IMG/VR virus record: IMGVR_UViG_3300025383_000009
Source: a virus
Taxonomy: Duplodnaviria > Caudoviricetes
Direction: 5' to 3' (one strand)
DNA: 64,000 nt
Shown: piece by piece, positions 51,777-64,000 of the stretch
How the letters are laid out: each line of letters starts with the position of its first letter
How positions within the stretch are numbered: position 1 is the first letter of the stretch
Translations under genes and position numbers: made by a program
Notes under the pieces: generated by a model
Seen by the model: the letters and a program-made list of their open reading frames with translations, nothing else
What the model was told of the DNA's origin: nothing
Database searches by the model: none

Positions 51777-54700
51777 TTAGTACCCGTATGTGATCTTATC
51801 TAAATCTGTCCTTGATTGGAAGTTACCAGATACGATGTTCACTATCAATGTACTGCCATCCCATGATACTATTGTACCAGCTGCAGGGTTTTGTGGACCT
51901 ATGCCAGCAGAATCAACTGTGATCTCTGTGCCGACCAATGAAGCGAAGTCGATTAAGTTAGACCAGTATGTATCTGGGTATAAGTATGCTTTACCTAATG
52001 GTATCGCGCCGTTATCAGAGTTATTTAATGAGTAGAATAAGTTTAATCCGCTTGGGTCATCAACAGTTGTTCCACCGATACGACCTTGTACAGACTCTCT
52101 TACCCAACTAATCGCTGTGCCAGAAGATGTTGGAGTTACCTTCAATGATATCACTGAACCGTTTGTTACTGCTGTTACATCCATGACTTTCGTAGCTTTA
52201 TCTGATCTTAATGTCGCATACTCAGTCATGTAAACTGCAGACGCATTTTGTGTTAAGATAACTTCTGTAGCTTGTACTTTGTTTGTTGTGCTAACACCTT
52301 GTACGATATACTTAGCTGTACCAACTTCGTTAGCAGCAAACATATCTACTGTTGTTTGTGATGTGCCAGATAATCCTGTTGAACCGTTTGCTAGGCTGTA
52401 ACCTTGTAGACCTGTGTAACCTTGATCACCGTCAGGACCAGTAGCACCTGAAGCACCAGTAATACCAGTAGCACCATCTAAACCGGTTTCACCTTGTATA
52501 CCTTGGTCTCCGTCTAAACCTGTTTGACCTTGTTCACCAGTTACACCTGAAGCACCTTGTACACCAGTAGCACCAGTTGAACCTGTATAACCTTGTTCAC
52601 CGAAAGCACCAGTTGCACCTTTATATCCATTAATACCTGTGGCACCATCTTGACCTGTTACACCTGATGCACCTTCCATACCGACTGCACCGTCAAGGTT
52701 AACATAAAGTGTATCAACTCCTGGAGTACTGTTACCTACTTCTGTTACGATAGTAATATTAATAGTACCAGTAATATTATCATAACTGTTTACTAAAGCT
52801 GTAGCAAAGTTCTCTGAATCTTTAGAGATGATGATAGTTTGACCAGCAGCATATGAATATGAGTAGTCAAGTGTTTGTGAATCTATTTGTATATTGATAT
52901 CACCACTTACATTGATATTTACACCGTTATCAATGTAGTAGTCAGTGTTAAGTAATATTGCTTTGAATCTATGACCATATGAACCAGTTGCACCATCAGT
53001 ACCAGTCTCACCTGTTGGACCTGATGCACCATCGATACCTTGTACACCAGTAGCACCTGTTGCACCGTCTTGACCTGTAGGACCAGTCGCTGCGTCATAA
53101 CCTAAGATACCTTGTTGACCGTCTGGACCTGTTGGACCTTGTACACCTGTAGCACCTGTCTCACCAGTTTGACCTTGATCACCAGTTATACCGATTCCGC
53201 CATCGATACCAGTTGCACCGTCTTGACCTGTTGGACCTGATGCACCATCAATGCCTTGGTTACCGTCTGGACCAGTAGCACCTGTTGCACCAGTTGAACC
53301 TGTGTAACCTATGTTAGTTGCAGCTGTATTACCTAAATATGTGTATCCACTTGGAACATCATGTTGTGGAGTAGTTATTAATTCAAACACAGCACCATCG
53401 AGTGTGCTTACTGCTGGATAACTATGCGATTGAGCTAATAAGAATGGTGAACCGTTAGTATTAGTTGCTGGATCACCGCCTTTTGACCATGCTCCACCGT
53501 TAACTCTTGCCCAAAATACTCCTGTATTATAATTATAATTAACTGCAACTTCTACTAAATCTCCAACGCCCCAATTAATACCTAATGAATCAGTTTGGAT
53601 ACCATTTATCCAAACAGTACCATCTTGTTGGAATCCTTGCGATTGGTCATCATATCTTCCTAATGCATTATTAACATCAATGCCAGATGTTCCTAAGCCA
53701 ATGCGATTAGTAGTAGCAGGTATATCAGCATCTAACCTTACACCAAACATACTTAAACCAGAGTTAGCGTATGTTGCCATTTCAGCAGTAGTTATTGCTG
53801 ATTCAACATAACCAACTGTACCACTTAATATTGTATTTGCGCCGTTACTGCCGCTTGAAATTGTTTGATTAGGCCCATAATGACCATAACCAGTATCAAA
53901 TTGAATTGCAGCTGATGAACCATCACCACCTTGAGCACCAGTAGCACCAGTATAACCTGTTGCACCATCTACACCTGTGTAACCTTGTTCGCCATCAGGA
54001 CCTGTTGCACCATCTAAACCTGTTGAACCTTGGATACCATCAGCACCAGAAGCTCCGTCTATACCAGCTTCACCAGTTGCACCTTGAAATCCTCGTTCAC
54101 CTGTAGCACCAGCAACACCAGTTGCACCAGTTAAACCTACTGTACCTGTAGCACCATCAGCACCAGTTGCACCTCTGGCATTATATGTACGACCTTGCAA
54201 TCCTCGTTCGCCATCGATACCTTGTGCGCCGTCTTGACCGGTAACACCAGTAGCACCAATTTGACCTACTGCTCCGTCAAGGTTGATTACCCATGCGTTA
54301 TGTGAACCAGTACCTACGTGATCTGTTTGTGTAAATGCAAGGATGTTTGTTACTGGATCGTAACTTGTAACTGTACCATGTTGATGTATACCACCACCAT
54401 CGGTAAGAATAATTGTTTCACCACCACCATAACTTAATCTTTCATCTACGACTACAACTCCTGTAGCACCTGTAGATGCAAGTGTAAATGCAGTGGTTGA
54501 AGAAGTTTTGTATCTGTGACCATATGAACCAGTTGCACCAACTTCACCTGTTTGACCTGTTGCACCTATGTAACCAGCATTTCCTGTTACACCACGACGT
54601 AAGAATGTGAATCCGCTTGGAACACCGTATTCAGCAACATCATTGATAGTAAATTGTGCAGGACCATTAGAACCATAGATACCTACTGCTGGATAAACAC

Positions 54701-55886
54701 CAGCACTAAATACAGAATTATCAACTGATAAACCGCCAACACCAGTAGCTGGATCATTAGAGATATTACCATTCCAGTAACCATTGTTTACTCTGAACCA
54801 TATTAAATGGTTATCAGTGTCTACAGCTATATCAATCTTGTCTCCACTAGTATAGCTATCATAATGAGTTACATATGAACCAGCATAATAGATATCACCG
54901 TTTTGCGTATAAGCTATGGAGTTTTCATCAGGACCACCAAGCATAGCATTAAGATCAACATTACTGTTTGCGATACCAACTGAATTAGCGTTGTCACTAA
55001 AGTAATCGAAGGTAAAGCTGAACATGTAAGCATTGCCGCCGGCAATGTTTTGAGTACCTAGCGCATTATAGTAACCTTCGTTATCATCTGAAATTGTGAA
55101 GTAGTCGTCATTTGGGTAATATAACTGACTACCGATATAAGCTGGATCGAATACGTATGTGTTTGCAATGTAACCACCGAATCCACCTGTAGCACCATCA
55201 AGACCTGTTGGACCTTGATCACCTGTTACACCTTGAACACCAGTAGCACCGTCATAACCTTGTGCACCATCTTGACCAGTTACACCTTGAGAACCTGTAG
55301 CACCTTGGGCGCCTGTTGCTCCTGTAGCACCTGTCTCACCAGTTGGGCCAGTTGCACCTGCATAACCTGTATTTGTAGCAGCGCTATATCCTGTAATTGT
55401 GATTGTTGCATTTACTGGAATATCACCTAAAGTTATAGGTGTGTTTGTTAAACCTAAGAAAGATATATCACCTTGATCTACATAATTATAAACTGTGTAT
55501 GTAACTGAGTTATATACAAACGTCATTCCTGGTGCAGGAGTAGCTGATAGCGCTCTACCATCAATACGAATGTAGCTACCGTAGAGCGTTGGATATACTA
55601 ACCAAGCGTTATCTAATGCAGCTGTTACAGTTGCATCGATTGATACATATGTACCACCATTACCGCCTGTAGCACCTGTTTGACCAGTTACACCAGAAGC
55701 ACCATCAATACCGGTAGCACCAGTAGATCCTGTCTCTCCTCTAACACCTGTTGCACCGTATGGTGATTCACCTGGACCAGAAGCTCCGACCCATTCACCA
55801 GCTGTGTTGATGACCTCAAATCCAGAGGCACCGACCGCTAGTCCGTTCTTGACGTTAAACTTTATATCATTGGTTGGTAGTGACAC
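51777..55886 (-). CDS. Collagen-like fibre protein with two SPRY/B30.2-like domains
   Basis: Gly-X-Y runs interrupted by GD(K/L)(I/V)xxAV...WxRVNxGxW...YPAV domains; GTG start. Confidence 0.85.
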
Positions 55887-55914
55887 GTGCCTATCTCCTG
55901 AATTTTATTTGTTA

Positions 55915-58191
55915 TTAAGCTAGTACTGCTTCTCTTAAGAAGTCGATTGTTGTGTTTGTATTTACTGGTGATACTTTAACGTATACTGTACCAGAGTCAT
56001 AGTTTGCACTTACAGTCATTAGAGACGCTGTTGAGTACATCGTTGCATACTCTGTAACTGAAGCATCTGAACCATCATGCGTTACCAATACTTCTGTTGA
56101 GTGTACATCGCTACCATGTGTAGCTTGGATGATATACTTAGCTGTCCTGTAAACTGTAGCATCATATGAATCGATAGTTTGGTTAGCAACTGTAGTTGTT
56201 AATGGATCGTTTCCTGCAGTTAAACCTGTACCTGTAGCACCAGTTAAACCTGTTGAACCACTTGCACCTTGGTAACCAGTAGCTCCATCTAATCCTTGAG
56301 GACCTGTTGCTCCTGTGAAACCTGAAGCACCTTGGATACCAGTTGCACCAGTATAACCTGTTGCACCAGTATAACCAGTCGCACCATCTACACCTTGAGG
56401 ACCTGTTGCACCAGTGAAACCTGTAGCACCTGATGCACCTTGGAAACCAGTGGCACCTGAAGCACCATCGATACCTGTTGCACCTGTGTAACCAGTTGCA
56501 CCTTGAACACCTTGTGCACCATCAAGGTTAACTGTCCATGCTGTATGTTCACCTGAACCAACTGCTGTTGTCTTGTCGAATACTAATTGGTCACCGCTGT
56601 AACTTACAACTGTACCTAATTGATAATTTGTATCATCGTAAGCAACTACGATTGATTGAGCTGGAGTATAAGCTAAACCAGAATCAACTGTTAATGTGAT
56701 TTGACCAGTTCCGCCGATAGTGAATCTTGAAGTTGATGATGTTGCATAGAGGTCACCGTTAGCACCGCTAGCACCAGCAATACCTGTTGCACCTGTGTAA
56801 CCAGTTGCACCATCGATACCTGTAGCACCTGAAGCGCCGTCAATACCAGTTGCACCAGTATAACCGGTTGCACCATCGATACCTGAAGCACCGTCAATAC
56901 CTGTCGCACCTGTGTAACCTGTAGCACCATCGATACCAGTTGCACCTGTATAACCTGTAGCACCAGTATAACCTGTCGCGCCACTTGCACCGTCGATACC
57001 TGTAGCACCTGTATAACCTGTTGCACCATCGATACCAGTTGCGCCTGAAGCACCTTGATATCCTTGTACACCATCGTTACCTTGAGCACCTGTTGCACCA
57101 CTTGCACCTACTGGACCAGTAGCACCTGTATCACCAGTATAACCTGTAGCGCCGTCAGCACCAGTTGCACCTGAAGCTCCTTGAATACCTGTCGCACCGC
57201 TTGCACCATCAGCACCGGTTGCACCAGAAGCACCATCAATGCCTGTTGCACCGCTAGCACCTTGAAAACCAGTAGCACCTGATGCACCTTGATCTCCTTG
57301 AGAACCGGTTGCACCTGTGTAACCAGTGGCGCCTGAAGCACCTTGGAAACCTGTAGCACCTGATGCACCATCGGCACCTGTAGCACCGCTTGCACCTTGA
57401 ATACCTGTTGCACCTGTATAACCTGTAGCACCTTGAACACCGACAGCACCATCAAGGTTTACTGTCCATGCTGTATATTGTGTGCCTGTTGCATGATCTG
57501 CGGTTGTGATGATTAAATCTAATTGACCAGTACCTGAATTGTAGTTATCTACATAACCGATTACATAATCGGTAGGATTAGTTTGAGAAGCAACTAATAC
57601 TGATTGTTGTGGAGTATATGAAAGACCAGTTTCTACATTAATTGTTAATGTAACACCAAGAGCGTAGTCTGTAAGTGTTAATGGATCAGTTGAGGTTGTT
57701 GCGTATTTGTCACCGTTAAGACCGGCAGAACCTGTTGCACCTGTTTGACCAGTTGCACCTGTATAACCTGTAGCACCTGATGCACCATCGATACCAGTTG
57801 CACCAGTATAACCTGTAGCACCTGTGTAACCTGTTGCGCCGTCAATACCTGTTGCACCTGTAACACCAGTAGCACCTGTATAACCTGTAGCACCATCTAT
57901 ACCAGTTGCACCACTTGCACCATCAATACCAGTAGCACCTGTATAACCTGTGGCACCATCAGCACCCGTGGCACCTGATGCACCATCGATACCGGTTGCA
58001 CCGGTATAACCGGTTGCACCGTCAATACCTTGGACACCTGTTGCACCTGTGTAACCTGTGGCACCTGTAGCTCCAGCAGGAAGTTCGGCTCCTATCCAAT
58101 TACCGTTTTCGTCAATGACGTCAATTATGCCTGACGCACCCCCTACGGATAGCCCGTTTCTTACTACAAAAGTTGAATTATTCGTTGCCAC
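55915..58191 (-). CDS. Collagen-like fibre protein
   Basis: GATG(Y/I)(T/D) repeats; shared N-terminal and C-terminal modules; GTG start. Confidence 0.88.
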
Positions 58192-58232
58192 AGTTTGATC
58201 TCCTTGATGATGGTGTTAGTGCTTTATACTAT

Positions 58233-58240
58233 TATTTATA
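58233..58240 (-). promoter_or_regulatory. Late promoter TATAAATA
   Basis: Exact consensus before the collagen fibre gene. Confidence 0.7.
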
Positions 58241-58250
58241 ATAAATTTAT

Positions 58251-59855
58251 TTAGAGTCCTATCGTAGTTCTTATGTATTTTATATCAGTATAAGGACTTT
58301 GGGGCGTAAATCTTAACTCAATATAGCCTGTCCCAGACCATTGAATACGTGATACTATTAATAAAGGTGATCTACTTTCAACAGTAGATGCTACGTATAC
58401 ACCTGGGCTAGTCATGATAAACTTACTACTAAGAGTCGCTGATATAGCTCCTCCATTTAATGATATTACTGTTGTAGGTATTGCTGATAGTAATGCTTGT
58501 ACTGCTGAATTTGATGTAGAGTATATAGTTAATGTTGTTCCAGTCCAGAACGACAGAGCCGAAATGTTGATATCTGGTGATGAATAGTCATTATCTACAG
58601 GTGAGTAATACGTAGCGAATGATCCTAATGATTCACCCATACCTGCATACTCTGTAAAGAATACGTTTGCTTTATCCCATAAGAGTAATAACTCTTCAGC
58701 ATAGTAGTTTGTACCTTTTGTCAGCTGTACCTGATACTTTGCACTCCTATATATTGAGGTATCTAAGATGTCTATTAGCTGTTCATCTGTTGTGTTATTG
58801 GTGGTAAAGTCAATTACGTTGTCTACACCAATACCAGATGCACCTACAGGACCTTCGATACCTGTTGCACCTGTAATACCTATAGGTCCAGTAGCACCAG
58901 TCGCTCCAGCACCCTGTGCACCTGTGGCACCGTATGGACCAGTAGCACCTGGTAAACCTACTCCAGTTGCTCCTGCAATACCGCTTGCTCCTTGTGTACC
59001 AGAAGCACCTTGAATTCCAGTAGCACCTGTTTGACCTGTGGCACCTTGTGTACCTGTCGCTCCAGTTAAACCTGTTGAACCACTTGCACCTTGAATTCCA
59101 GTAGCACCTGTTTGACCTGTGGCACCTTGTGTACCTGTCGCTCCATCCAAACCAATAGTACCAGAAGCACCATCGATACCACTAGCTCCTTGTGGACCAG
59201 TAGCACCTGTTGCACCAGAACCTGATGCTGTTGCAGATATAGTTAATGATTGTGGGTTTGCTGAATGATCTGTTGTGATGGTGATACCAGTACCACCAAT
59301 GATATGTAGTGTATCTTCTGCTACAGCTACGAGGTCTGTCTGACCGTCTACTTTGATAGTCTTGAACGCAGAACCAAGACTTACTTTAACTTCACCGCCA
59401 CCAAGATCTGATACGTTGAATCCTGTATCCCTATCGAACCTTAGAGCGTTTACACCTGTTACTTCGTTAGTGATTGATCCTGTAGCACCACCAGTTGCAC
59501 CACTGATGTTACTTACCGTGATGTTTGCAACACCAACACCGCTCGCACCAGTTACACCGCTTGCACCTTGTGCACCGCTGGCTCCGATACCAGATGCACC
59601 TTGTGTACCTATTGCACCGCTTGCACCTTGAATGCCTTGTTGACCTTGTGCACCTGATGCACCAATACCTGAAGCGCCTTGTTCTCCTTTAGGACCTGTA
59701 GCACCGCTTGCACCCTGTGGGCCTGATGCACCACCTGTATCTCCCTGTGGGCCTGTTGCACCAGTAGGACCGGTAGCACCAAAGCCAGCACCGTTACCTG
59801 ATAGCCCTTGTATACCAACGGCCGCGACTTCTACGTATACGTCTCCTAATGCCAT
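58251..59855 (-). CDS. Collagen-like fibre protein
   Basis: GAS/GAT/GPQ triplets; YRSAKYQVQ module. Confidence 0.85.
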
Positions 59856-59864
59856 TCTTATTCC

Positions 59865-60218
59865 TTATATGATCTCTGGAGGATCAGATTGCGTTATTTG
59901 TGGTGTGAATATAATAACACCTTCTGAGACTCTTAATGATTCTCCAAAAGGTGATGTCACGTATACATCATACATGTATCTTCCAGGTTTAATCGATGCA
60001 GTATCAGCTGCAGACAATGATAGTCTTACTTGTCCACCTGTAGTAGAGTATACTTCAGCATGAAAGTCAATATGATTATGAGCTATATAAGACTTACGTA
60101 TGTAAGCCCGAGTAGTAAAACCCGATAAGTTTAGTGGCAGTCCGTCTGAACCCACCACAGTGATTACTGCACCAAAGTTTGATCCAGTGTCAATATAAAA
60201 ATTTGTTATAGCTGCCAT
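59865..60218 (-). CDS. Conserved T4-like fibre/baseplate adaptor (BppU N-terminal-like)
   Basis: NFYIDTGSNF...LNLSGF...IRKSY...GQVRLSLSAADT..IKPGRYMYDV...RVSEG. Confidence 0.65.
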   Translation of the reverse strand: MAAITNFYIDTGSNFGAVITVVGSDGLPLNLSGFTTRAYIRKSYIAHNHIDFHAEVYSTTGGQVRLSLSAADTASIKPGRYMYDVYVTSPFGESLRVSEGVIIFTPQITQSDPPEII

Positions 60219-60224
60219 AGTTAT

Positions 60225-60232
60225 TATTTATA
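60225..60232 (-). promoter_or_regulatory. Late promoter TATAAATA
   Basis: Exact consensus. Confidence 0.65.
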
Positions 60233-60246
60233 CGACACTGGTTCCT

Positions 60247-61623
60247 TTAAATTGGTTGTATGCTTATAATCTTCTTACCAGTCTTAGGTTCTGGTATCCC
60301 TTTTACAGCTCCGATGATGTCTTTTCTAGACTCATCAAGGTCTCCGTCAATATAGTATGGGAGACATCCTGTTAACATCTCAAACGCAGCCATGAAGAAC
60401 GGTATGTTATCAGAGTAAGCGTTATCACATGCTAGGCTCCACATATCTCCATGTAAAAACATGCATGAACCTTGACATATCTGTAATACTGGACATGTAG
60501 GACACTCTTCTCTATGACTCCAGTGTGTACTAGTCTTTAACTTGATGTTGTCAAAGTCATTAACGTTACCGATAAGGTGACTCTCACCATTAAATCCTAT
60601 AGCTACAGAGCTAACGTTTTGACATGTTAGCACGTTACCTTTTAAATCTACTGCAATATTGTGTTCATCATCCATCGTACACTTCTGACCTACAGCAACA
60701 GCTGGTCTTTTGGTTTGTATAGATGTTATGAACTCGTTGATCTTCTTCTTAGTGGCACCAACATTAGTTCCAAGTCCACTTCTTACTTCTTTAAACGTAT
60801 TAGCTCGATAGTTAAGGTGATCGTGTTCATCAGTAAAACAAACGCTAGCACCACCTTCATCATATGGATCAATGAACCCACCTTCTCCGATAGGTACATC
60901 AAACCCAAGTTTATCTTTAAACCATTGACTTATGGCTGCACGGCTTTGGTTATCTTTATTCACCATAGCGTTAAAGCTCATACGATTCTTTGGTCCTAAC
61001 CTATTCCATAGATCCATGATCATCGCGAATTGTTCTGGATCATCGAATGGGTCTAACCCTCTAACATGATAACCTGGTCCATCATGTGATATACCAACAC
61101 TAAACCCTAAGTTATCAAGCCATTCATTCTTTTCTAAGTCTAATATAGTACCATTAGTCACTATACCAAATGCTATGTTTGGATACATCTTCCTCATGCC
61201 TTCAGCAAGAGGCTTTAGACTCTTCCAATATACAAAGGGCTCACCACCCCAAAATTCTACTTTAACTCCAGTACCGTCTTTATTATCACCACCATCAAAC
61301 CATGTTGGTAGTTGATCTAAGAACGGACCTACATCATCCTTTGTCATCTCATCAGCTTTAGGTACAAACCTTTGACTGCAGTAGACACATTCATAATTAC
61401 AAGATAAGCCTAGCTGTATCTTGAGGATCTTAATATCTTTACTCTTTTTTGCTGGAGTGTCTTTACTTGTAGTAAACACTTCTTTATAGGAACGAGTATT
61501 ACCGTTACTAAAATCTATCACGTTTCCATTTGCATCTGATATCTCAGAAGTCATGTTATCATACCAAAACTCTACATCTTCATTTGTTACAGGTCTCACA
61601 CATTTTATATTAAACTTCGCCAT
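60247..61623 (-). CDS. Radical SAM/SPASM-domain enzyme (anSME/AslB-like peptide or protein maturase)
   Basis: CNYECVYC (CxxxCxxC), FWGGEP, TNGT, ISHDGP; SPASM cysteines KC...GNVLTC...ECPTCPVLQICQGSC...AC. Confidence 0.92.
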   Translation of the reverse strand: MAKFNIKCVRPVTNEDVEFWYDNMTSEISDANGNVIDFSNGNTRSYKEVFTTSKDTPAKKSKDIKILKIQLGLSCNYECVYCSQRFVPKADEMTKDDVGPFLDQLPTWFDGGDNKDGTGVKVEFWGGEPFVYWKSLKPLAEGMRKMYPNIAFGIVTNGTILDLEKNEWLDNLGFSVGISHDGPGYHVRGLDPFDDPEQFAMIMDLWNRLGPKNRMSFNAMVNKDNQSRAAISQWFKDKLGFDVPIGEGGFIDPYDEGGASVCFTDEHDHLNYRANTFKEVRSGLGTNVGATKKKINEFITSIQTKRPAVAVGQKCTMDDEHNIAVDLKGNVLTCQNVSSVAIGFNGESHLIGNVNDFDNIKLKTSTHWSHREECPTCPVLQICQGSCMFLHGDMWSLACDNAYSDNIPFFMAAFEMLTGCLPYYIDGDLDESRKDIIGAVKGIPEPKTGKKIISIQPI

Positions 61624-61643
61624 TTCATGTCCTTAATTATAAA

Positions 61644-62288
61644 TTATAATGTAACGTAATTCCTTACAGATTCAACAACCTTTATGTTAGTAACTAATGC
61701 AATAGTATCAACGCTTCCTAAGTTAACTTCAGTAGTATGGAATATTGAAGAAGGATGTATAGTAAATGTTCCTAGTACAGGACTTATTGGGAATAACATC
61801 TCATGATTCAATAATCTACTTCTTGAAGAAATAGGATCGATTATGTGTAACCTATTTCCTGCAGGTTTTTGATGAGTATTATTATTTGGAAAGTCTGTGA
61901 CTTCCATAGATACCCATAAAACTGCCACGTAGTCAACGCTTCTATGATTGTGAGGCTTTGCATACTCACCAGGAGCAAACTTACGTAAGCTAGTGATAGC
62001 TTCAAACTCTACTTCTTCTGGATTAATAAAACCTTCAGCTGCAGCTAACTGAGCCATCCTAGATTTTAACATACTTTTAAATAGCTGGCATTCTGGACGA
62101 GGATCAGCTAGTAAGTTATAAGCTGCCTCTTTTGACTTACGCATATAATAAGGGACATGAGCCTCAGGATGCTGAGCTTCATATTCTTCACCAATACTAA
62201 TAATATTCTTTAAAAAATCATCAGTAGCTTCAACCGCTCTTTGTTCAATAAGAATATTGGTTGGCCATAGTTGTGCAATATTAGTCAA
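61644..62288 (-). CDS. Fe(II)-dependent oxygenase, TIGR02466-like double-stranded beta-helix
   Basis: PGEYAKPHNH...YVAVLW...L..IDP...HPSSIFHTT. Confidence 0.7.
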   Translation of the reverse strand: MTNIAQLWPTNILIEQRAVEATDDFLKNIISIGEEYEAQHPEAHVPYYMRKSKEAAYNLLADPRPECQLFKSMLKSRMAQLAAAEGFINPEEVEFEAITSLRKFAPGEYAKPHNHRSVDYVAVLWVSMEVTDFPNNNTHQKPAGNRLHIIDPISSRSRLLNHEMLFPISPVLGTFTIHPSSIFHTTEVNLGSVDTIALVTNIKVVESVRNYVTL

Positions 62289-63057
62289 GTGTTACTACCT
62301 TAGTAGATACGCCAGTCCAGTATTTGTATCCAGTTTTAATTGTTACTACTTCACCAGCATTTAATCCAGTAGTGTCTAAGTTAAATGTACCACCATTCGT
62401 TACACGTGATCTATTAATTACACCAATATCAGATGAAAGATAAACCGTAGTGTTTGCTGGAGCCGTCACTGTATATGCATGTGTATCACCAGCTTTAATA
62501 GTACTTGGTCCATTAACTATGATAGGTAACCATGATTCTAAGAATGCATGCATCGATACTATAGATGTAGATGAAGGAGCTGATCCGTTAACTGTGATGT
62601 TTGCACCATCTCTAAATATGATAGTTAGTTCGCTGGTAGGACAATCCTTATATGGTGTTAAGATATACAAGTAACCATATGAAGAGTATCTACTGTTGAT
62701 AACTGACCATGGTGAACCTGGATATGTTTTACCTTCTGCCGCTGGTGTCACATCAGTTTTTTGATAGATCATACCTGGATCACCTCCGCCCTTTTCACTT
62801 AATGAAAGTTGTGTAGTCTCCATAGCCATGAATTCTTGAGTATCTGGGATATGCATTGCTTTTGGAAACAACGCGATACATCCATGATCCTGAGAATATT
62901 TTTGTACTAGTTCTGCTAGATTGAATGTACCAACAGCATTGGTTGTTCCAATTGCAGTAACAGTAGTATCAGAAATCTCCAATGTCAAGATATCATTTTT
63001 GATAGTGACATCGTTTTTTGATAACGTTCTTGTTGTACTTAGTGAGTAAAAATTCAT
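62281..63057 (-). CDS. Hypothetical protein in the radical SAM operon (beta-rich, Ig-like C-terminus)
   Basis: Overlaps the oxygenase start; C-terminal IIVNGPSTIKAGDTHAYTV. Confidence 0.65.
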   Translation of the reverse strand: MNFYSLSTTRTLSKNDVTIKNDILTLEISDTTVTAIGTTNAVGTFNLAELVQKYSQDHGCIALFPKAMHIPDTQEFMAMETTQLSLSEKGGGDPGMIYQKTDVTPAAEGKTYPGSPWSVINSRYSSYGYLYILTPYKDCPTSELTIIFRDGANITVNGSAPSSTSIVSMHAFLESWLPIIVNGPSTIKAGDTHAYTVTAPANTTVYLSSDIGVINRSRVTNGGTFNLDTTGLNAGEVVTIKTGYKYWTGVSTKVVTLD

Positions 63058-63081
63058 TGTTTTTTCCTTTTTATCTATTTA

Positions 63082-63447
63082 TTAGCAATTACATGCACAG
63101 TTACAGTTATAGTTTTGTAAAGTTAAAGCTCCGGAAGCACCAGTAGCACCGTTCCAATATAATCCCCAAACTCCACTTGTAAGGTGACCTACTCCTCCTC
63201 TTCCGCTACCGCATGCGCTAATAACACCACTGTTAAGGTTATCACCGCTTATGAGGTTTCCAGCTGATAAGAATGGTCCATAGTTACCAAGATCATTAGT
63301 AAACTGACTTAGTGCTGTTGGTCTTCCAACTATACCTGTGGCTCCTGTAGCGCCTGATGCACCTACAGTGCCCCATACAAATGATGCTGTACTTAAAGTA
63401 GTACCATCACCAAATTTTATATCACCATTTTCTAATATCGTTGCCAT
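63082..63447 (-). CDS. Small fibre-like protein with C-terminal NCNCACNC tail (candidate rSAM substrate)
   Basis: Ends LQNYNCNCACNC*; shares FGDxTTLS and LSQFTNxLGNY with its neighbour. Confidence 0.8.
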   Translation of the reverse strand: MATILENGDIKFGDGTTLSTASFVWGTVGASGATGATGIVGRPTALSQFTNDLGNYGPFLSAGNLISGDNLNSGVISACGSGRGGVGHLTSGVWGLYWNGATGASGALTLQNYNCNCACNC

Positions 63448-63456
63448 TTATTATCC

Positions 63457-63960
63457 TTAGCAGTTACAGTTGCAATTACAATTATTAGCATTGATTGACA
63501 AAGTTGTACCATTCCAGTTTAAGTGTCTTGGACCATATTCATTATATGCATAGTAACCTGATAATGTCATCTGATAAAGTTTTGTACTAGCTAAATTTTG
63601 TGAAACGCTGACCACATATACTCCAGTACCTCCTGTAGCGCCTGAAGTCTGTGATACAAAATATGTACCGTTTGCAACACCAACACCGTTTAATGCATTA
63701 GGACCAAGATTATTGCCGATAGCTATGCTACCAGATATGATACTTGTTACAGTTAGATTGGTTCCTGATATACTTCCAATAAAAACTGCAGCATGACTTA
63801 AATTATCAATTGTAATAAATGGATAGTAGTTGCCAAGATTATTAGTAAACTGACTAAGATTAGTAGGAGCACTAGTTAATTGTGATTGTGTAACATTTGC
63901 AGAAGATAGTGTGGTGTTATCTCCAAAAACTAATGATCCATTTGTTATTTTTGTTGACAT
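63457..63960 (-). CDS. Small fibre-like protein with C-terminal NCNCNCNC tail (candidate rSAM substrate)
   Basis: Ends NANNCNCNCNC*; has no other Cys. Confidence 0.8.
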   Translation of the reverse strand: MSTKITNGSLVFGDNTTLSSANVTQSQLTSAPTNLSQFTNNLGNYYPFITIDNLSHAAVFIGSISGTNLTVTSIISGSIAIGNNLGPNALNGVGVANGTYFVSQTSGATGGTGVYVVSVSQNLASTKLYQMTLSGYYAYNEYGPRHLNWNGTTLSINANNCNCNCNC

Positions 63961-63968
63961 CTATTATC

Positions 63969-64000
63969 CTAACAATTACAGTTACAGTTACAGTTGCAAT
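63969..64000 (-). CDS. 3' end of a third (Asn-Cys)n-tailed ORF, truncated by the window edge
   Basis: Minus strand reads xAT TGC AAC TGT AAC TGT AAC TGT AAT TGT TAG = ...CNCNCNCNC*. Confidence 0.8.
   Translation of the reverse strand, partial: CNCNCNCNC

What the first reader, a model, noticed from the sequence alone, without database searches (positions are those of the whole stretch)
60247..64000. Phage RiPP-like system: radical SAM/SPASM and oxygenase adjacent to (Asn-Cys)n-tailed virion-like proteins
Seen: one co-directional, tightly packed run of at least three paralogous ORFs ending in (NC)n, then a 258-aa unknown protein, an Fe(II) oxygenase-like protein and a complete rSAM/SPASM enzyme. 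It sits at the head of the tail-fibre block, and a late-promoter-like TAATAAATA lies just upstream of the 258-aa gene. Known: SPASM maturases make Cys-to-carbon thioethers. NxxcB links Cys to the Asn beta-carbon, PapB links Cys to Asp, and QhpD cross-links a folded protein. Inference: this enzyme installs serial Cys-Asn thioether cross-links (or another Cys modification) in the C-termini of fibre-like proteins. That would be ranthipeptide-type chemistry used in virion maturation, and I do not know of it being described for phages.
Basis: partly seen in the sequence, partly recalled or inferred. Interest (0 to 1): 0.92.

Follow-up and report, generated by a model that had tools for sequence, protein, structure and literature searches.

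The report
Phage fibre Asn-Cys tails with radical-SAM enzyme
A freshwater T4-like phage encodes three small tail-fibre proteins that end in Asn-Cys repeats, followed by a dedicated radical-SAM enzyme. This pairing recurs in almost every related phage and prophage locus sampled, so these viruses probably modify their fibre tips enzymatically, which I could not find described in the papers searched.

Summary
On the minus strand lie three paralogous fibre-like ORFs ending in (Asn-Cys)4-5; the third runs over the window edge. They are followed by a 258-aa unknown protein, an Fe(II)/2OG-oxygenase-like protein and a complete radical SAM/SPASM enzyme, all in one late structural operon.

The enzyme-tail link holds in both directions.
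- Of 127 homologous loci with at least 3 kb of upstream flank, 120 carry a co-directional ORF with an (X-Cys)≥3 tail rich in Asn/Asp within 5 kb upstream. Only 11 such motifs occur in 2.08 million other ORF residues of the same loci.
- Of 33 IMG/VR matches to DNA encoding NCNCNCNC-stop with enough downstream flank, 31 have the enzyme downstream. The other two are not inside genes.

The tail sits on varied fibre proteins, some of them collagen-like. Where it is internal, it is mostly followed by a Hint domain, which is expected to cut itself off.

The enzyme has 3+7 invariant Cys and its model is closest to the thioether-forming CteB. It reaches no curated family cut-off.

The chemistry (Cys-S to Asn/Asp β-carbon thioethers) remains inference. 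No paper describing the system was found. Earlier notes of this scan report the same family in two other genomes.

The parts
63969..64000 (-). 3' end (last 10 codons plus stop) of the first NC-tailed fibre-like protein. It is 94 aa and ends GNCNCNCNCNC; the gene continues beyond the window to equivalent position 64253.
   Evidence: L004:4309-4593
63457..63960 (-). Second NC-tailed fibre-like protein, 167 aa, ending NNCNCNCNC. Its N-terminus carries the conserved GxxTFGDxT...LSQFTNxLGNY fibre motif.
   Evidence: (phrog_38233 tail fiber, 1e-9)
63082..63447 (-). Third NC-tailed fibre-like protein, 121 aa, ending NYNCNCACNC.
63076..63084 (-). TAATAAATA, one base off the T4-type late promoter TATAAATA. 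It overlaps the stop codon of the 121-aa gene.
62281..63057 (-). 258-aa companion protein. The N-terminal domain (about 175 aa) has no recognised fold; the C-terminal part (177-258) is a Big_1/intimin-like Ig domain. The family is present in 104 of 127 homologous loci.
61644..62288 (-). 214-aa Fe(II)/2OG-oxygenase-like protein (PF13759-like). Conserved residues: H113, position 115 as H/E/D, and H184. The family is present in 95 of 127 loci.
60247..61623 (-). Radical SAM/SPASM enzyme, 458 aa. It has CX3CX2C at C75/C79/C82, seven invariant SPASM Cys (C315, C334, C374, C377, C383, C387, C399) and an N-terminal beta domain of about 60 aa.
60225..60232 (-). Canonical late promoter TATAAATA. It lies downstream of the cassette and starts the next transcription unit.
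59865..60218 (-). 117-aa LtfC-like fibre-assembly or adaptor protein. It is a neighbour, not a conserved member of the cassette (tblastn found it in only 6 of the sampled loci).

Best explanation
This is a virion-maturation cassette. A dedicated radical SAM/SPASM enzyme, made late in infection together with the fibre genes, modifies the C-terminal (Asn/Asp-Cys)n tail of tail-fibre proteins.

The most likely chemistry runs as follows. A substrate Cys thiolate binds the open site of the first auxiliary Fe-S cluster. The 5'-deoxyadenosyl radical abstracts a beta-hydrogen from a neighbouring Asn, Asp or Ala. A Cys-S-to-C-beta thioether then forms, several times in series. The result is a non-reducible ladder that staples the fibre tip, within a chain or between the three chains of the trimer.

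In this T4-like lineage, three small paralogous mini-fibres carry the tail. In other phages, one larger fibre carries it. The 258-aa Ig-domain protein and the Fe(II) oxygenase are frequent optional helpers; the oxygenase may hydroxylate Asn or Asp.

Shown: the gene content, the two-way genomic coupling, the enzyme's cofactor motifs and its fold. Inferred: that the tail is the substrate (about 0.8), and that the product is a thioether (about 0.5).
For: 1. Coupling. 120 of 127 rSAM-homologue loci with at least 3 kb upstream have a co-directional Asn/Asp-rich (XC)≥3 ORF within 5 kb, at a median of 1462 nt. The same motif occurs 11 times in 2.08 million other ORF residues. In the reverse direction, 31 of 33 NCNCNCNC-stop matches in IMG/VR have the rSAM downstream, and the two exceptions are not inside ORFs.
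2. The pairing holds in isolates of different architecture: siphovirus JWF, where the repeat is followed by a Hint domain, and myovirus RSP15, whose annotated side tail fibre ends NCQCGN, a shortened two-repeat form that fell below the motif threshold.
3. Minimal two-gene versions exist, with the rSAM starting 14-76 nt after the tail.
4. The tail is terminal. 136 of 148 motifs lie within 4 aa of the C-terminus, and most internal ones precede a Hint domain.
5. Selection acts on the protein, not the DNA: codons are mixed and there are 103 distinct tails.
6. X1 is Asn in 95% of tails and X2 in 88%. Overall X is N 73%, D 12%, A 8%, Q 1%. Asp, Ala and Gln are the substitutions that NxxcB tolerates at its Asn acceptor (PMC9389541).
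7. The enzyme has exactly 3+7 invariant Cys. At the position of the extra anSME cluster ligand Cys261, the HMMER alignment shows no Cys.
8. The best structural match is CteB, Z 21.1 over residues 1-417 including the N-terminal domain.
9. The cassette lies between late promoters in a structural operon.
Against: There is no direct evidence for any chemical change, because no proteomic or mass data exist.

The enzyme falls far below every curated family cut-off: PapB 57 bits against 340, anSME 42 against 349, QhpD 35 against 453. Its chemistry therefore cannot be read from family membership.

An NxxC register leaves the last Cys paired with a variable residue, and the last two X positions are only about 55% Asn.

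Seven of 127 loci lack the motif as I defined it.

The complex prediction gave no verdict.
Confidence: 0.55

Rival explanations
1. The rSAM does act on the NC tail, but by a different radical reaction. Candidates are Cys to formylglycine (as anSME does), epimerisation, C-C or C-O cross-links, or a reaction involving the terminal Cys or its carboxylate.
For: anSME is a full-length structural and sequence match (Z 18.2; TIGR03942 aligned over 7-324 of 363). TigE, a cyclopropylglycine synthase, is the top hit by sequence profile. This shows that close SPASM folds perform unrelated chemistry. The tail almost always ends at the C-terminus, which could mean the terminus itself is involved.
Against: Asn at X1 and X2 is nearly invariant, which is unexplained if only Cys is altered. 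The enzyme lacks a Cys at the position of the eighth cluster ligand of anSME. There is no anSME-type C-x-P/A-x-R motif.
Confidence: 0.2
2. The alternating Cys tail is a metal- or Fe-S-binding needle, analogous to the His-x-His iron sites of the T4 gp37 tip. The rSAM would then act on something else, or only help to load the metal.
For: An alternating X-C-X-C pattern puts all Cys on one face of a beta-strand. Three chains would bring 12-15 thiolates together. CxC motifs are typical metal ligands. This rests on general knowledge and was not tested here.
Against: It does not explain why a SAM-cleaving SPASM enzyme is coupled to the tail in 94% of loci, and directly abutting it in minimal loci. 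It also does not explain why the X positions prefer Asn, Asp and Ala.
Confidence: 0.1
3. The small NC-tailed ORFs are precursors of a released RiPP-type peptide, such as a bacteriocin or signal, rather than virion parts.
For: In this window the substrates are small (94-167 aa) and occur in three copies, like multi-precursor RiPP clusters. The enzyme has a CteB-like N-terminal domain.
Against: No protease or exporter gene was seen in the cassette. In other loci the same tail ends fibres of 200-690 aa, some collagen-like. The N-termini carry fibre motifs and PHROG tail-fibre hits. The genes lie in a late structural operon.
Confidence: 0.05

Closest known systems
CteB / SCIFF and PapB / freyrasin (ranthipeptide thioether maturases)
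   Same: Radical SAM plus a 7-Cys SPASM domain. The best structural match is CteB (Z 21.1), and the match includes the N-terminal domain. PapB-family alignment is full length. The substrate has serial Cys next to Asp-like acceptors, and PapB links Cys to Asp/Glu (PMC12373016).
   Different: Scores are far below the family cut-offs (57 bits against 340). The substrates are the C-terminal ends of whole tail-fibre proteins, not leader-bearing short peptides. The system is encoded by phages of Proteobacteria. The repeat period is 2 (X-C), not CX3D.
NxxcB / NxxcA (streptococcal beta-thioether, Cys to Asn C-beta)
   Same: Each NCNC contains an NxxC. The natural X-position variants Asp, Ala and Gln are the same substitutions NxxcB tolerates at its acceptor (PMC9389541).
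   Different: Enzyme homology was not tested, because the libraries used hold no NxxcB model. NxxcA is a quorum-sensing-regulated small peptide with one link. Here there are 3-9 tandem repeats on a structural protein.
QhpD / QhpC (rSAM/SPASM cross-linking of a folded protein subunit)
   Same: A SPASM enzyme that installs several Cys-to-Asp/Glu thioethers in a protein rather than in a RiPP.
   Different: TIGR03906 scores 35 bits against a cut-off of 453. The substrate is unrelated, there is no quinone cofactor context, and the target is a virion component.
anSME (anaerobic sulfatase-maturating enzyme)
   Same: Full-length fold and sequence alignment. It acts on Cys in a protein without a leader peptide. 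GenBank annotates the JWF homologue with this name.
   Different: It scores 42 bits against a cut-off of 349. There is no sulfatase motif, and no Cys at the position of anSME's eighth cluster-ligand Cys.
CXXX-repeat rSAM systems in phage fibre modules
   Same: The same idea: Cys-repeat fibre ends encoded next to rSAM/SPASM enzymes.
   Different: The repeat period differs (every fourth residue against every second). The enzyme families differ (TIGR04115-type). The hosts are mostly Firmicutes or enterobacterial jumbo phages.

Membership tests
Radical SAM superfamily (PF04055) | CX3CX2C cluster motif and a score above the Pfam gathering cut-off | tested here: met
   C75/C79/C82 are invariant in 21 sequences. 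PF04055 scores 31.2 bits against 29.5. The fold matches rSAM enzymes.
SPASM subfamily (TIGR04085) | C-terminal 7-Cys motif: CX9-15GX4C, gap, CX2CX5CX3C, gap, C | tested here: met
   TIGR04085 scores 33.9 bits against 27. C315, G329-x4-C334, C374-x2-C377-x5-C383-x3-C387 and C399 are all invariant.
PapB-family ranthipeptide maturase (NF047865) | Score at or above the curated cut-off of 340 bits | tested here: not met
   56.7 bits
Anaerobic sulfatase maturase (TIGR03942) | Score at or above 349 bits, and an eighth Cys that fully ligates auxiliary cluster I | tested here: not met
   41.8 bits. The family has only 7 invariant SPASM Cys, and no Cys aligns to anSME Cys261.
QhpD (TIGR03906) | Score at or above 453 bits | tested here: not met
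   35.4 bits
NxxcB/NxxcA system | NxxC motif in the substrate | tested here: met
   Every NCNC contains NxxC. X1 is Asn in 95% and X2 in 88% of 103 tails.
NxxcB/NxxcA system | Enzyme orthology to NxxcB, and a short leader-bearing precursor | not testable with these tools
   The libraries searched hold no NxxcB model. The substrates here are fibre proteins of 93-691 aa, not short precursors.
RiPP (in the strict sense) | Leader peptide recognised by an RRE and removed, releasing a peptide product | tested here: inconclusive
   The N-terminal beta domain aligns with the CteB N-terminal region, but it has only strands and no helices. No protease or exporter gene was seen in the cassette. The tail is C-terminal on structural proteins.
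Fe(II)/2OG oxygenase, PF13759 (the 214-aa protein) | Score above the gathering cut-off, and an H-x-D/E...H metal triad | tested here: inconclusive
   24 bits against 27; phrog_81 at 1.5e-12. H113 is 98% conserved, position 115 is H/E/D in 93%, and H184 is 100% conserved.

The most novel reading that the evidence does not exclude
The rSAM builds a ladder of inter-chain thioethers that covalently locks the three chains of a fibre tip. In this lineage the tip would be a heterotrimer of the three conserved paralogues. This would be an enzymatic, non-reducible cross-linking of a virion receptor-binding organelle, widespread in phages of freshwater and soil Proteobacteria, with the oxygenase adding beta-hydroxyl groups to Asn or Asp.
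Probability: 0.25. Interest if true: 0.9.

Novelty: new variant of a known kind. Interest (0 to 1): 0.8.

Why it matters
Known covalent stabilisation of phage particles, such as the HK97 isopeptide chainmail or disulfides, is autocatalytic or spontaneous. A dedicated radical-SAM enzyme acting on tail-fibre tips would be a new kind of virion maturation.

It would extend RiPP-type thioether chemistry from small secreted peptides to large structural proteins. It would also define a very short, portable C-terminal tag, (N-C)4-5, that is recognised by one enzyme.

The family is large (2470 homologues at E ≤ 1e-10, none with an informative name). It occurs in culturable phages (JWF, RSP15), so the question can be tested directly. 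It could matter for fibre stability, host recognition and protein engineering.

Tried and rejected
- Megablast of the region against GenBank phages found no match.
- Complex prediction of the rSAM with the 94-aa NC-tailed protein scored 0.02 and gave no verdict. It is not evidence either way.
- The 258-aa protein could not be assigned a function. Pfam and NCBIfam gave nothing. Fold searches found only a generic Ig domain plus uncharacterised phage proteins. The ESM Atlas added nothing usable.
- Plain tblastn found the 258-aa and oxygenase genes in only 29 loci. Iterated HMMs were needed, and some profile drift cannot be excluded.
- Single-linkage clustering of the fibre bodies collapsed into one cluster through shared fibre motifs, so it did not measure diversity. 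Domain scans and N-terminal sequences showed the diversity instead.
- The distant homologue in jumbo phage RP12 (25% identity) sits among three rSAM genes with no Cys-rich neighbour. It is a different system and marks the boundary of this family.
- An N-glycosylation sequon reading was rejected, because N-C-N is not N-x-S/T/C.
- A DNA-microsatellite or phase-variation reading was rejected, because the repeat codons are mixed.
- Literature searches for this system found nothing relevant.
Full report
WHAT IS THERE

The window is part of a 127.6-kb IMG/VR viral contig and has about 37-47% G+C. The canonical T4-type late promoter TATAAATA occurs 16 times, always on the minus strand, against an expectation of 6.

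On the minus strand, read 5' to 3', the genes run as follows:
- A 1720-aa baseplate or fibre protein, preceded by a late promoter at L004:10888.
- A 68-aa ORF.
- A 303-aa fibre with a Peptidase_S74 intramolecular-chaperone domain.
- Three small paralogues of 94, 167 and 121 aa, ending GNCNCNCNCNC, NNCNCNCNC and NYNCNCACNC.
- A 258-aa protein.
- A 214-aa oxygenase-like protein.
- A 458-aa radical SAM/SPASM enzyme.

The next canonical late promoter lies at 60225-60232, in front of an LtfC-like gene and three collagen-like fibres. The cassette is therefore part of a late structural operon.

THE ENZYME

- PF04055 and the SPASM model TIGR04085 both pass their cut-offs.
- Across 21 homologues down to 43% identity, exactly ten Cys are invariant. 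Three form the CX3CX2C motif (C75, C79, C82). Seven form the canonical SPASM pattern (C315, C334, C374, C377, C383, C387, C399).
- No curated family is reached. The best scores are the geopeptide maturase at 60 bits, PapB at 57, anSME at 42 and QhpD at 35, against cut-offs of 340-453.
- The AlphaFold model has pLDDT 86. It aligns best with CteB, the SCIFF thioether maturase, at Z 21.1 over residues 1-417, including the N-terminal beta domain. Next come ChlB (19.6), anSME (18.2) and TigE (17.6).
- In the HMMER alignment to anSME, no Cys corresponds to anSME's additional cluster ligand. From established knowledge of CteB and anSME, a 7-Cys SPASM domain leaves an open iron site that binds the substrate Cys. 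This fits thioether-forming enzymes, but it is an inference.

IS THE ENZYME TIED TO THE TAILS?

I collected 169 loci with homologues of 42-72% identity. They comprise 80 IMG/VR contigs, 80 GTDB genome contigs, and isolates. The genome contigs are mostly Limnohabitans and other Burkholderiales, with some Alphaproteobacteria; many look like prophages.

- Forward test. Of 127 loci with at least 3 kb of upstream flank, 120 have a co-directional ORF with at least three X-Cys dipeptides (at least two X being Asn or Asp) ending within 5 kb upstream, at a median of 1462 nt. The same motif occurs only 11 times in the other 2.08 million ORF residues of these loci.
- RSP15 fell among the seven misses only because its annotated side tail fibre ends in two repeats, NCQCGN.
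- Reverse test. I scanned all IMG/VR contigs for DNA encoding NCNCNCNC followed by a stop codon. This gave 51 matches. Of the 33 with at least 3.5 kb downstream, 31 have the rSAM within 5 kb. The two exceptions do not lie in any ORF of 70 aa or more.
- About a dozen contigs have the rSAM starting only 14-76 nt after the tail. The pair alone is therefore a sufficient unit.
- A distant homologue in jumbo phage RP12 (25% identity) has no such neighbour.

THE TAILS

- I found 103 distinct tails. Four or five repeats are commonest.
- X1 is Asn in 95% of tails, X2 in 88%, X3 in 74% and X4 in 57%. Overall X is Asn 73%, Asp 12% and Ala 8%.
- 136 of 148 motifs end within four residues of the C-terminus.
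- Internal motifs are mostly followed by a Hint domain (C|FPAGT...), as in phage JWF and a Burkholderia paludis prophage. If that domain cuts itself off, as Hint domains generally do, the repeat becomes the C-terminus.
- The carriers differ widely: mini-fibres of 93-170 aa, fibres of 200-400 aa, and collagen-repeat fibres of 550-690 aa, with several unrelated N-termini.
- Codons within the repeats are mixed. In 99 of 105 tail DNAs, at least half of the 6-nt units differ from each other. Selection therefore acts on the peptide.
- In the T4-like clade closest to the window (61-72% enzyme identity), the three mini-fibres are conserved as an orthologous trio. This suggests a heterotrimer, but I could not test it.

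COMPANION GENES

Iterated profiles place the 258-aa family in 104 of 127 loci and the oxygenase family in 95 of 127. All four genes occur together in 78 loci.

The 258-aa protein model (pLDDT 81) has a C-terminal Big_1/intimin-like Ig domain (Z about 10). Its N-terminal domain has no solved counterpart. Whole-length matches are only to uncharacterised phage proteins.

The oxygenase family keeps H113, position 115 as H/E/D, and H184, so it probably binds Fe(II). Both proteins are frequent but dispensable. I infer a helper or adaptor role for the first and a tailoring role, such as Asn/Asp beta-hydroxylation, for the second.

MECHANISM

The best-supported reading is that the rSAM modifies the tail (about 0.8). 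The chemistry I consider most likely (about 0.5) is formation of serial Cys-S-to-C-beta thioethers with Asn or Asp. The reasons are:
- NxxcB makes exactly this link in an NxxC motif and tolerates Asp, Ala and Gln at the acceptor position (PMC9389541). These are the natural variants seen here.
- PapB links Cys to Asp/Glu (PMC12373016).
- The nearest solved fold is a thioether synthase.

The rivals are other radical chemistry on the tail, a metal-binding needle, and a released peptide. They are scored in their own section. Nothing here measures a mass change.

NOVELTY

Full-text searches found no description of this system, and public annotations call the enzyme 'radical SAM domain-containing protein' or 'anaerobic sulfatase-maturating enzyme'.

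Earlier notes of this scan describe the same enzyme-tail family on two other genomes (e1-3435272, e1-3503543). They also describe analogous CXXX-repeat systems in other phages. My counts were made independently and agree with them.

I class the finding as a new variant of a known kind: SPASM thioether-type maturases, here applied to virion fibre tips.

Noticed in passing
window 51777-59855 (-): Three large collagen-like fibre proteins (1369, 758 and 534 aa) lie directly downstream of the cassette. They are built of G-x-T/S-G repeats such as GATGxTG, with almost no proline.
   Followed up: no
L004:4602-5513 (-), just beyond the window end: A 303-aa fibre with a Peptidase_S74 intramolecular-chaperone domain lies directly upstream of the three NC-tailed genes (PF13884, 8e-12).
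   Followed up: partly
L014:5796-7247 (phage JWF gp028); also L151, L171, L036, L125, L060: In some phages and prophages the Asn-Cys repeat is internal and followed at once by a Hint (intein-like) domain. That domain would cleave itself off and leave the repeat at the new C-terminus.
   Followed up: partly
L158:5512-5982, L170:5498-5917, L154 and L157: A different class of small Cys-rich proteins directly abuts the rSAM in Paraburkholderia and Polynucleobacter contigs and in two metagenome-assembled genome contigs. They carry a motif like CTNCDxxAWLQxNCNCACTYNC followed by a second NC run.
   Followed up: no
L174 (Ralstonia jumbo phage RP12, record positions 84042-89152): Three radical SAM genes in a row lie near virion structural genes, with no Cys-rich ORF nearby. 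This appears to be a separate, uncharacterised phage rSAM system.
   Followed up: partly
whole window, minus strand: There are 16 exact TATAAATA sites, all on the minus strand (about 6 expected). This fits T4-type late transcription of this contig.
   Followed up: partly
L177, L178, L181, L188, L192, L193, L202, L205, L207, L210, L216: These are minimal two-gene versions of the system. The rSAM (about 44% identity) starts 14-76 nt after the NCNCNCNC stop codon, with no 258-aa or oxygenase gene in between.
   Followed up: partly
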